Positions 23,396 through 24,525 of a stretch of DNA of 64,000 nucleotides are shown here, piece by piece; the first letter of the stretch is position 1; each line of letters begins with the position of its first letter. Made by a program: the position numbers and the translations under genes. Source of the DNA: a virus (lineage: Duplodnaviria; Heunggongvirae; Uroviricota; Caudoviricetes); the IMG/VR virus record IMGVR_UViG_2568526086_000002, positions 1,489 to 65,488 of that record. One strand, 5' to 3'. The notes below the pieces were generated by a model that saw nothing but the letters and a program-made list of their open reading frames with translations, searched no databases and was not told the DNA's origin.

Positions 23396-23421
23396 AAAAG
23401 CCCCGTTCAGGGGCATCAGTG
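23396..23421 (-). terminator. Rho-independent terminator (gcccctgaacggggc + T6) ending the inserted T5orf172 gene
   Basis: On the minus strand, a GC-rich hairpin followed by 'ttttttgt'. It sits 1 nt after the stop codon. Confidence 0.7.
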
Positions 23422-24231
23422 TTATTTGCTAAGAGCAGCGAATAATCGTTCGAAATCGATAGTATCTATAGCACGCGTAAGCGCCGGAAGTTCAGCCTCA
23501 AAGTACCCGTGTCGATCGTAAAAGAAGGGACCGAAGAGCGAGGCATGTTGGATTCTACTTCGCCCCAGCCCGGACACACAGTTAAGCCCATTACCGGCTA
23601 AAAGGCTAAAAAACTTCTCTGGATTATCGTGGTAAAGCTGGGAATCAATGGTGGCGGTTAACTCTTCCATAGGGAAGCACACCCGCCCTGTCTCCCAGGG
23701 ATATTTAGTCCGAAGCATAAACATTGCTTTCAGCAATTCACATTGAGCGCGGATCGCGTCCGGTTCATAGCCAGATATGGAGACATAAGCCACGTCCCTC
23801 ATTCCTGCGTCATCTTTGAAAGTCACGATAGAAGTAACATCCAGCTCTTTTTCGAAAGAGCAAGCAGCATCTACTGGACGCTGAAGTAAATCATTCGACT
23901 TGATGCGCTCGAGAATCCCTCCCCACATATCATTTAGATATTCGATATGAGCCAAAACCTTATCAAGACACTCTCGTGTAAACCATTCAGTATGCCCGCC
24001 ACCGGCGCTTTTCTCCCACGGCGCATTCCAGGGGAAAAAGGTTGCGTGTAAAGCCCGCTCAAGATTAACCATTGCCAAACGCGTACCACGATAGACCCGT
24101 GAAAGCGCAAAATCGGGACTCACTTGTAGCCCTTTAAACCGTGCCAATGGACCACATGAAATGCCGATTTTAAAAGTATCTCCGTTCTCTGGCACCAGAA
24201 CGTAGAGGTAGTGTTGTTTCTCTTCTTGCAT
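23422..24231 (-). CDS. T5orf172/MUG113-type (GIY-YIG-like) domain protein with a C-terminal domain of unknown function (269 aa)
   Basis: The N-terminus matches the T5orf172 pattern 'YLYVLV...TFKIGIS...RFKGLQ...ERALHATF...GHTEWFTRECLDKV'. It is a stand-alone gene with its own terminator between the incA iterons and the par promoter. Confidence 0.7.
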   Translation of the reverse strand: MQEEKQHYLYVLVPENGDTFKIGISCGPLARFKGLQVSPDFALSRVYRGTRLAMVNLERALHATFFPWNAPWEKSAGGGHTEWFTRECLDKVLAHIEYLNDMWGGILERIKSNDLLQRPVDAACSFEKELDVTSIVTFKDDAGMRDVAYVSISGYEPDAIRAQCELLKAMFMLRTKYPWETGRVCFPMEELTATIDSQLYHDNPEKFFSLLAGNGLNCVSGLGRSRIQHASLFGPFFYDRHGYFEAELPALTRAIDTIDFERLFAALSK

Positions 24232-24239
24232 ATCAATAC

Positions 24240-24525
24240 CACTGCTTGATGAGAGTCGCGCAAATGTTGACTATGCGCGAAGGTTAATGTGAATAGTTGA
24301 CTATGCGCGATGTGACTACAGTCAAAAGTTGACTGTAGTCGATTTAACTCCACCAAAGATCGACTATGTAAGATATTGTCGGGAGAAACGTTGACTATAC
24401 GCGATGAAATGGGCCTAAAAGCCATCTCAATAGCGACTTGCAGAATATTGACGCCAGCAAAAATCCACCAGCGTCAACGAATGTCGCCTATAGTCAACTT
24501 CTCGCTATCGCATATAGTCAATATT
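24240..24525. repeat. Downstream iteron array (incA-type copy-number control locus): about 9 copies of a (G)TTGACTAT(G/A)CGCGA-like repeat in both orientations
   Basis: Repeats read directly at 24267, 24297, 24318 (inverted), 24332, 24360, 24390, 24450, 24472 (inverted) and 24510 (inverted). Confidence 0.75.

What the first reader, a model, noticed from the sequence alone, without database searches (positions are those of the whole stretch)
23396..24240. Stand-alone T5orf172 (GIY-YIG-like) gene inserted between the incA iterons and the par promoter of the plasmid-maintenance core
In the canonical P1 replicon the incA iteron array abuts the parA promoter. Here an 810-bp ORF with its own strong terminator sits between them. 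Its N-terminal roughly 105 aa fit the T5orf172/MUG113 signature (KIGIS ... GHTEWFTRECL), a domain that recurs in phage defence and anti-defence genes. The C-terminal roughly 165 aa have no motif I recognise. Its upstream region is the incA iteron array, so its transcription could be gated by RepA occupancy, that is, by plasmid copy number. It is a good candidate for a single-gene abortive-infection or anti-restriction function carried by a phage-plasmid.
Basis: partly seen in the sequence, partly recalled or inferred. Interest (0 to 1): 0.7.

Follow-up and report, generated by a model that had tools for sequence, protein, structure and literature searches.

The report
Nuclease gene riding P1 replicon cassette
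A real but dispensable, fast-evolving nuclease gene sits at the edge of the swappable replication module of P1-like phage-plasmids; it is common and already annotated, its function is untested, and it most likely serves conflict between related elements, not plasmid upkeep.

Summary

It is not an insertion into the P1 replicon. The whole 2.25-kb 'p0111-type' rep cassette (23356-25605) replaces P1's incC-repA-incA, and the gene lies at the cassette's par-side edge.

The cassette plus gene occurs in 404 of 547 P1-par plasmids in PLSDB and in 412 of 5,426 complete E. coli genomes. The JL22 paper calls it an 'unknown protein-encoding gene'.

The protein family has only four deeply divergent lineages, all in P1-like phage-plasmids and all in this slot.

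It evolves fast: pN/pS is 0.33, against 0.02 for repA and 0.00 for parA. It shows independent nonsense mutations, an IS insertion and a clean deletion in relatives, so it is not housekeeping.

Best reading (about 0.4): a homing-endonuclease-like or Odn-like nuclease used in conflict between related replicons, probably co-transcribed with repA. Anti-phage defence is not excluded. Nothing has been tested biochemically.

The parts
23356..25605 (-). Alternative ('p0111-type') replication/incompatibility cassette: terminator, T5orf172 gene, incA-like iterons, repA and incC-like iterons. It replaces P1's incC-repA-incA.
   Evidence: blastn against P1 NC_005856: homology covers 18001-23355 and 25606-29926 only. 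The same 2250 bp occurs in 404 PLSDB plasmids.
23394..23414 (-). Intrinsic-terminator-like hairpin (GCCCCTGAACGGGGC) plus T-run, 7 nt after the stop codon.
   Evidence: and the sequence.
23422..24231 (-). The gene under study ('X'): 269 aa, intact in this window.
   Evidence: It is 100% identical to the copy in NZ_CP022733.1.
23917..24231 (-). N-terminal T5orf172 / GIY-YIG-type nuclease domain (aa 1-105). Y10, K21, G23, R31, E58, H62 and E82-W83-F84 are invariant across 11 relatives.
23425..23853 (-). C-terminal domain (aa 127-269): acidic and winged-helix-like, with no sequence homologues outside the four lineages.
24264..24522 (.). incA-like iteron array (GTTGACTATRCGCGA units in both orientations). 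The last unit ends 34 nt before the ATG of X.
   Evidence: and the sequence.
24524..25408 (-). repA of the alternative cassette (Rep_3 family). It is 42% identical to P1 RepA. The probable start is the ATG at 25408.
25487..25589 (.). incC-like array: five iterons. Four are 21 bp apart and the first sits 23 bp before them (origin/repA-promoter side).
23308..23336 (-). par promoter (TGTACA-17-TATTAT), shared with P1. It lies just inside the P1-homologous flank.

Best explanation
Shown. X is a two-domain protein: an N-terminal T5orf172 (GIY-YIG superfamily) domain and a fast-diverging C-terminal winged-helix-like domain. Its gene is a component of the exchangeable rep/inc cassette of P1-like phage-plasmids and sits at the cassette's par-side boundary.

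Proposed function. X is a homing-endonuclease-like or Odn-like conflict nuclease. It would cut DNA of related elements that lack it or that carry another cassette. The outcome would be loss of the rival, or repair that copies X together with its linked repA-iteron cassette through the conserved flanks (the oriR DnaA-box side and Ppar-parA).

Proposed expression. It is probably expressed at a low level as the distal gene of the RepA-autoregulated repA transcript. Output would then be highest when RepA is scarce, for example just after entry into a new cell.

Status of each step. Domain identity, position, co-inheritance with the cassette, dispensability and fast evolution are shown. Nuclease activity, the target, co-transcription with repA and any drive effect are inferred.
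For: Nuclease domain.
- Pfam T5orf172 above its cut-off.
- Y10, K21, R31, H62 and E82 are invariant across 11 relatives and never vary in 41 natural alleles.
- T5orf172 is an active nuclease in ICP1 Odn; the E180A mutant is dead (PMC8263062).

Homing-endonuclease-type genomic signatures, as listed by Barth et al. 2023 (PMC10448857).
- Variable presence among close relatives. L004 has it beside a P1-type RepA while P1 lacks it. L006 has it while L116 and L117 have a clean 892-bp deletion that keeps the first 10 codons.
- Frequent inactivation. W68*, S112*, Q228* and an IS200/605 insertion affect 8 of 43 loci.
- It lies next to genes essential for the element.
- It lies at a boundary of genetic exchange. 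Homology breaks 60-85 bp past its stop codon in window vs P1 and in L003 vs L004. The L003 and L004 backbones are otherwise 98-100% identical in protein.

Selection and divergence.
- pN/pS is 0.33, against 0.02 for repA and 0.00 for parA.
- Between lineages the C-domain is 15-33% identical and the N-domain 34-64%. That is the pattern expected of a specificity domain.

Population structure. Flanks on both sides are undifferentiated between X+ and X- populations, and identical alleles are shared. Only the cassette distinguishes the two groups.

Expression anatomy. The ATG lies 20-34 nt after the last iteron in all four lineages. No sigma-70-like promoter or terminator was found between repA and X, apart from one weak 9/12 match inside the L003 iteron array.
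Against: - The C-domain is acidic in all four lineages (pI 5.0-5.4), and the whole protein has pI 5.6. Typical homing-endonuclease DNA-binding domains are not acidic, so the domain may bind protein and not DNA.
- Window and L003 share iterons and have 84% identical RepA, yet their X C-domains are 33% identical. X therefore does not simply track its own iterons.
- The family occupies a single slot in a single group of elements, with no paralogues elsewhere. That is less mobile than classic homing endonucleases.
- The one X-less allele that can be read (L116) is a deletion, not a virgin target site.
- Free recombination along P1 backbones alone could explain the cassette boundaries.
- No biochemical or genetic data exist.
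Confidence: 0.4

Rival explanations
1. Single-gene anti-phage defence (abortive infection or direct nuclease). The T5orf172 domain would be the effector. The variable acidic C-terminal domain would sense a phage protein. The phage-plasmid carries the gene as cargo that benefits its host.
For: The architecture is a nuclease effector joined to a fast-evolving C-terminal domain. The domain is acidic, which fits protein binding. Frequent loss and pseudogenisation, and an elevated pN/pS, are typical of conflict genes. The gene is common in natural isolates: 7.6% of complete E. coli genomes.
Against: There is no PADLOC match even at E<=1. The family has only four lineages, all in one slot of one group of elements. 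No copies occur in chromosomal islands, other plasmids or other phages among 1.8 billion representative proteins and 185,579 species genomes. Defence genes normally spread widely. The gene sits inside the maintenance core and travels with repA, not in a cargo hotspot.
Confidence: 0.2
2. A domesticated, non-cutting DNA- or RepA-binding accessory of the replicon, in the manner of CapR. The T5orf172 fold and the Rep-WH1-like domain would modulate iteron handcuffing, copy number, or insulation between the rep and par units of its own cassette.
For: X is strictly linked to repA-incA across four cassette types, and its ATG lies 20-34 nt from the last iteron. The C-domain has a Rep WH1-like fold, and WH1 is the dimerisation domain of Rep_3 initiators. 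CapR is a precedent for a domesticated T5orf172-related protein that acts as a repressor (PMC8096241, listed; described).
Against: X is dispensable. Nonsense alleles occur in maintained plasmids, including SJ46 (Q228*). P1 itself and the L116/L117 elements lack the gene. Purifying selection is 15-fold or more weaker than on repA and parA. The catalytic-type residues are kept invariant, which a pure binding protein would not need. X diverges (44% identity) while RepA and the iterons stay nearly constant between window and L003.
Confidence: 0.12
3. A decaying passenger. X would be a former homing endonuclease or cargo gene that now does nothing and persists only by tight linkage to repA.
For: About 20% of sampled alleles are inactivated. 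One lineage shows a clean deletion. No ribosome-binding site or promoter is evident: a read of the sequences shows only weak Shine-Dalgarno-like matches before the ATG, and one search found no promoter.
Against: Intact ORFs of similar length persist in four lineages that have diverged to 25-44% identity, with a conserved catalytic constellation. pN/pS is 0.33, which is below 1. About 80% of alleles are intact.
Confidence: 0.1

Closest known systems
Odn (Gp88) of vibriophage ICP1, the origin-directed nuclease (Barth et al. 2021, eLife, PMC8263062)
   Same: Both have a T5orf172 nuclease domain fused to a domain of replication-initiator type. Both belong to a system in which Rep-plus-iteron modules are swapped between related elements.
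   Different: The domain order is reversed: Odn is RepA_N then T5orf172. Odn's DNA-binding domain is 42% identical to its target's RepA. Here the similarity to Rep is fold-level only, to the Rep_3 WH1 type, and weak. X is encoded inside the replicon cassette, not by an enemy phage. Its C-domain is acidic. No cleavage has been shown.
Free-standing T5orf172 and GIY-YIG homing endonuclease genes of phages (ICP1 T5orf172 HEGs; T4 Seg and I-TevI; Barth et al. 2023, PMC10448857)
   Same: Both use the same nuclease superfamily joined to a separate specificity domain. Both lie next to essential genes and at boundaries of genetic exchange. Both show sporadic presence and frequent frameshift, nonsense or deletion decay.
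   Different: ICP1 homing endonucleases carry N-terminal Zn-finger (CapR, DUF723 or DUF4397) DNA-binding domains, and 87% have one. X has none and is acidic. X occupies one slot in one group of elements. Homing has not been demonstrated for X.
CapR of PLE, a domesticated endonuclease-related repressor (Netter et al. 2021, PMC8096241)
   Same: It is a precedent for a relative of T5orf172 homing endonucleases being recruited to a regulatory DNA-binding role in conflict between mobile elements.
   Different: CapR's shared module is the Zn-finger DNA-binding domain. X keeps the catalytic-type residues and lacks that domain.
Classical P1 (IncY) plasmid replicon: incC-repA-incA followed by parAB
   Same: Gene order, iteron logic (five origin iterons, then a control array downstream of repA) and the flanking DnaA-box/GATC origin half and par operon are all conserved.
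   Different: P1 has no gene between incA and Ppar. It has a 190-bp spacer with no trace of X. RepA is 42% identical and the iteron sequence differs.

Membership tests
T5orf172 (PF10544) / GIY-YIG nuclease superfamily | Match to the family profile above the curated threshold | tested here: met
   PF10544: 27.5 bits against a cut-off of 20, E=4.7e-6, aa 8-85. PHROG 681 'endonuclease' E=5.5e-9.
T5orf172 (PF10544) / GIY-YIG nuclease superfamily | GIY-YIG alpha/beta fold | tested here: met
T5orf172 (PF10544) / GIY-YIG nuclease superfamily | Conserved catalytic constellation: Tyr in strand 1, Arg in helix 1, metal-binding Glu | tested here: met
   Y10, R31 and E82 (plus K21 and H62) are invariant in 11 relatives and in 41 natural alleles. 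Assigning them to catalytic roles rests on alignment to 1ywl and on published GIY-YIG knowledge, so it is an inference.
T5orf172 (PF10544) / GIY-YIG nuclease superfamily | DNA cleavage activity | not testable with these tools
   Needs purified protein and an E82A control.
Free-standing homing endonuclease gene | Sporadic presence or absence among close relatives at one locus | tested here: met
   L004 against P1, and L006 against L116/L117. In PLSDB, 404 plasmids have it and 144 lack it.
Free-standing homing endonuclease gene | Degeneration: nonsense, frameshift, insertion or deletion alleles | tested here: met
   Three independent nonsense mutations and one IS insertion affect 8 of 43 loci. 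One lineage has a deletion.
Free-standing homing endonuclease gene | Sits at a boundary of recombinational exchange next to essential genes | tested here: met
   Homology breaks 60-85 bp past the stop codon in two independent comparisons.
Free-standing homing endonuclease gene | Separate sequence-specific DNA-binding domain | tested here: inconclusive
   The C-domain is winged-helix-like but acidic, pI 5.0-5.4. It has no Zn finger and no known DNA-binding profile.
Free-standing homing endonuclease gene | Cleaves the allele that lacks the gene and is copied into it | not testable with these tools
   Needs co-infection or co-residence crosses.
Odn-like origin-directed nuclease | Targeting domain homologous to a replication initiator's DNA-binding domain | tested here: inconclusive
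Odn-like origin-directed nuclease | Iteron-dependent cleavage of an origin | not testable with these tools
   Needs a nuclease assay on oriR/incA fragments with and without iterons.
Known anti-phage defence systems (PADLOC-DB 2.0) | Match to a defence-protein model | tested here: not met
   No family matched at E<=1.
P1 plasmid-maintenance core (housekeeping) | Present in reference P1 and under strong purifying selection like repA and parA | tested here: not met
   Absent from P1. pN/pS is 0.33, against 0.02 and 0.00. Null alleles occur in maintained plasmids.

The most novel reading that the evidence does not exclude
X is a replicon-encoded 'incompatibility weapon'. A T5orf172 nuclease would be guided by a Rep-WH1-mimicking domain, either by binding rival iterons or by pairing with a rival RepA. 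It would be expressed from the RepA-autoregulated repA transcript when the element enters a cell. It would cut the replication module of co-resident P1-like rivals and so drive wholesale replacement of their rep/inc cassette. This would explain why nearly identical P1-like backbones carry unrelated replicons, and why the X-bearing p0111 cassette is now about three times as common as the classical IncY one.
Probability: 0.15. Interest if true: 0.8.

Novelty: new variant of a known kind. Interest (0 to 1): 0.5.

Why it matters
P1-like phage-plasmids are frequent carriers of ESBL and mcr genes. They are typed by two replicons, IncY and p0111.

The p0111 replicon always brings this uncharacterised nuclease gene with it, and 7.6% of complete E. 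coli genomes carry it.

If the gene is a cassette-linked conflict nuclease, it would give a mechanism for replicon swapping and competition among phage-plasmids. It would also extend the Odn and T5orf172 homing-endonuclease paradigm from one Vibrio phage-satellite system to enterobacterial plasmids.

If it is only a decaying passenger, the result still corrects the idea that it is an insertion into the P1 replicon or a maintenance function.

Tried and rejected
Searches that returned nothing or could not run.
- NCBIfam and PADLOC scans of X gave nothing.
- Pfam and PDB sequence searches with the C-domain profile gave nothing meaningful.
- hhalign of the C-domain against the RepA family gave probability 0.2%. 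I therefore did not claim homology to RepA.
- Word-based searches of 5.8 billion proteins (three searches) and a full HMMER scan of 1.84 billion representatives found only four full-length lineages.
- A genome-contig scan found one Escherichia copy and one weak N-domain relative.
- The literature had no paper linking T5orf172 to phage-plasmids, P1-like elements or DUF4041.

Ideas considered and rejected.
- 'Simple insertion into P1': rejected by the breakpoint mapping.
- 'Housekeeping replication or partition factor': rejected on dispensability and weak constraint.
- 'P1 spacer is a relic of X': no similarity.
- 'Own sigma-70 promoter in the iterons': none found on the sense strand. The proximal iterons point the other way.
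- 'Foreign base composition': GC and GC3 of X are unremarkable.

A lead that did not help. The context of the only wider N-domain relative I could look up (P0022) is a mobile-element region with a large ParB_N protein. It was uninformative.

Full report
**Observation.**

The window carries, on the minus strand, the order parB (21039-22040), parA (22057-23253), the par promoter, a hairpin plus T-run (23414-23400), a 269-aa ORF (23422-24231), an iteron array (24264-24522), repA (24524-25408) and five more iterons (25487-25589), of which four are 21 bp apart.

Pfam T5orf172 matches aa 8-85 above its gathering score (27.5 against 20 bits, E=4.7e-6). MUG113 is sub-threshold. The ORF matches PHROG 2876 ('unknown function') end to end (E=2e-194) and, through its N-terminus, PHROG 681 'endonuclease'.

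**What the region is.**

The window is a P1-like phage-plasmid. blastn against reference P1 shows about 97% identity over 18001-23355 and 25606-29926, and none in between.

The 2250 bp at 23356-25605 replace 1491 bp of P1, namely incA, repA and the incC iterons. The DnaA-box/GATC half of oriR and the par promoter are shared. RepA here is only 42% identical to P1 RepA. This is therefore the alternative replicon that plasmid typing calls p0111, as opposed to IncY. [quoted passage not shown]

The gene is thus part of a replaced cassette and not an insertion into the P1 replicon. It is common:
- 12 phage records carry it, including SJ46, RCS47, phi456 and JL22.
- 404 PLSDB plasmids carry the cassette.
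- 412 of 5,426 complete E. coli genomes carry it.

Among PLSDB plasmids with the P1-type Ppar-parA (547), 404 have this cassette and 144 have the P1 spacer. Essentially only two states exist there. PGAP names the product 'GIY-YIG nuclease family protein'.

**The protein.**

An alignment of 11 relatives gives these invariant residues: L9, Y10, K21, G23, R31, D40, S44, E58, L61, H62, E82, W83 and F84. This is the T5orf172 version of the GIY-YIG constellation, with Tyr, Arg and Glu kept and KIG in place of YIG.

The full-length model gave the same set. The single best BFVD match is a 'COG5527 protein involved in initiation of plasmid replication' (E=0.04). These scores are weak. Profile-profile comparison with the cognate RepA family finds nothing (probability 0.2%). 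The domain is acidic in all lineages (pI 5.0-5.4). I therefore call it 'Rep-WH1-like at fold level, role unproven'.

**Distribution of the family.**

Three word-based searches of 5.8 billion proteins and one exhaustive HMMER scan of 1.84 billion representatives find only four full-length lineages:
- the window type;
- P0004 (44% identity);
- P0010 (27%);
- P0011 (30%).

All four are encoded in P1-like phage-plasmids in the same slot, repA-incA iterons-[X]-Ppar-parA. A scan of 185,579 species genomes adds only one Escherichia copy and one weak N-domain relative. About 70 further proteins share only the N-domain.

**X travels with the rep cassette.**

L003 and L004 have 98-100% identical gp23, ParA, ParB and UpfB, but 41% identical RepA and 29% identical X. 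Their DNA homology breaks from just before the incC iterons to 60-85 bp past the stop codon of X. The window-versus-P1 breakpoint is 67 bp past the stop. X therefore marks one edge of the exchanged unit in independent comparisons.

X is not tied to one RepA type. L004 has a P1-type RepA (83% to P1) and carries X, while P1 does not. L006 carries X, whereas L116 and L117 have the same RepA type but an 892-bp deletion. That deletion keeps the ATG and the first 10 codons of X and joins them to the T-run of its terminator. This is a loss event, not an empty site. Other P1-type RepA loci in IMG/VR lack X. The P1 spacer shows no trace of X.

**Selection.**

I compared 43 IMG/VR loci of the window type. 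Full-length gapless copies were recovered from 41 (X), 42 (repA) and 38 (parA) of them.
- X has 28 nucleotide alleles that encode 24 proteins.
- repA has 24 alleles encoding 5 proteins.
- parA has 26 alleles encoding 2 proteins.
- Mean pN/pS is 0.33 for X, 0.02 for repA and 0.00 for parA.

Three independent nonsense mutations occur: W68* once, S112* in five loci, and Q228* in SJ46. One locus has an IS200/IS605-type insertion.

None of the catalytic-type residues varies in the 41 full-length copies. Between lineages the N-domain is 34-64% identical and the C-domain 15-33%. Window and L003 share iteron sequence and 84% identical RepA, yet their X proteins are 44% identical.

X is therefore functional over the long term. 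Intact ORFs and conserved active-site residues persist at 25-44% identity, and pN/pS is below 1. It is also dispensable for plasmid maintenance, evolves fast and is often lost.

**Population context.**

Sequence blocks on both sides of the cassette (upfB, ppfA-mlp, upfA, Ppar-parA, parB) are no more different between X+ and X- elements than within each group. Identical alleles are shared across the groups. Only the cassette is differentiated. If X tells self from non-self, the distinguishing sequence has to lie within the rep cassette region and not in the flanks. This is an inference.

**Expression.**

In all four lineages the ATG of X lies 20-34 nt after the last incA iteron. By my own reading of those sequences, only weak Shine-Dalgarno-like matches precede the ATG; no tool was run on this.

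On the sense strand, no sigma-70-like promoter and no terminator were found between the repA stop and X in the window, L004 or L006. L003 has one weak 9/12 match inside its iteron array. The iterons nearest X point away from it. A strong terminator follows X in the window and in L006, but not in L003 or L004.

The simplest reading is co-transcription with repA from the RepA-autorepressed promoter in incC, through the RepA-binding incA array. That P1's PrepA is autoregulated by RepA is established knowledge and is annotated.

**Interpretation.**

The closest studied relatives of the nuclease domain are the T5orf172 genes of vibriophage ICP1.

Barth et al. 2023 list the genomic signatures of these putative homing endonucleases: variable presence, frequent frameshifts and deletions, and location next to essential genes and at boundaries of genetic exchange (PMC10448857). 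X shows all of them.

Barth et al. 2021 showed that ICP1 Odn fuses a T5orf172 nuclease to a DNA-binding domain copied from the RepA of its parasite PLE. Odn cuts the PLE origin in an iteron-dependent way, E180A abolishes cutting, and this selects for swapping of the RepA-plus-origin module (PMC8263062). X also combines T5orf172 with a domain of initiator-like fold, and it also lives in a system of swapped Rep-iteron modules.

I therefore favour, at about 0.4, a conflict nuclease of the homing-endonuclease or Odn kind. It would act on related elements and be co-inherited with its cassette.

Several points weigh against this:
- The C-domain is acidic.
- The structural evidence is weak.
- X does not co-evolve with its own iterons.
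- The family is confined to one slot.
- The one readable X-less allele is a deletion.
- General backbone recombination could produce the same boundaries.

**Rival explanations.**

Anti-phage defence (about 0.2) fits the effector-plus-variable-domain design and the turnover. It has no PADLOC match, and the family is not found in any other genomic setting.

A domesticated regulatory or RepA-binding role (about 0.12) fits the tight linkage to repA and the WH1-like fold. It conflicts with the gene's dispensability and with the conserved catalytic residues.

A decaying passenger (about 0.1) conflicts with long-term ORF conservation.

**Novelty and verdict.**

The gene and its position are already in databases and were noted once in the literature as 'unknown'.

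Four things are new here:
- It is a positional, four-lineage family confined to the rep cassette edge of P1-like phage-plasmids.
- It has an N-terminal T5orf172 domain followed by a Rep-WH1-like acidic domain. This differs from the ICP1 homing endonucleases (Zn-finger then T5orf172) and from Odn (RepA_N then T5orf172).
- It evolves like a conflict gene.
- It is probably under repA control.

I rate it a new variant of a known kind, with interest 0.5.

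Noticed in passing
window 24314-24340: A perfect 12-3-12 palindrome built from two inverted half-iterons (GACTACAGTCAA aag TTGACTGTAGTC) lies inside the incA-like array. It resembles the inverted-repeat operators that Rep_3 dimers bind in F and pPS10, and could be a RepA-dimer site.
   Followed up: no
L046 4295-6057 (IMG/VR UViG_2645727563_000002): A 1763-bp element encoding a 389-aa TnpB/OrfB-like protein (IS200/IS605 type) replaces nt 295-523 of the X gene.
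   Followed up: partly
L116/L117 6130-6165 versus L006 5105-6020: An X-less allele of the L006-type cassette keeps the ATG and the first 10 codons of X, fused to the T-run of its terminator. This is a clean 892-bp deletion.
   Followed up: yes
L001 (P1) 6157-6328: The 190-bp spacer between incA and Ppar in P1 ends with an ORF-tail-like reading frame (...NLNVEEIRVLYAWRMPKHVVTHLAKE*). It has no similarity to X and may be the remnant of some other gene.
   Followed up: partly
L050, L057 and 28 other IMG/VR loci (repA-parA gap of 405 nt): The identical P1 RepA is combined with either a P1-type par operon (gap about 560 nt) or a P7-like par operon (ParA begins MMMKRDYGG; gap 405 nt). The par module is therefore swapped independently of the rep module.
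   Followed up: partly
window 26147-26762 (mlp/ppfA): This block is far more polymorphic among P1-like elements (mean pairwise distance 0.12-0.16) than its neighbours upfB (0.03) and parA (0.01).
   Followed up: no
window 24524-25444: The mechanical ORF for repA starts at a TTG (306 aa). The homologues and the RCS47 annotation support the ATG at 25408 (294 aa, MPEESKGF...).
   Followed up: partly
OR339795.1 (phage phi456) 39757-41157: In this record the X gene is annotated 'terminase small subunit', which is almost certainly a misannotation.
   Followed up: no
L118 4484-5365 (P0022): A distant relative that shares only the N-domain (293 aa) lies in a short metagenomic contig next to a 623-aa ParB_N protein and a DUF7673 protein. 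This looks like an accessory region of a plasmid or ICE.
   Followed up: partly
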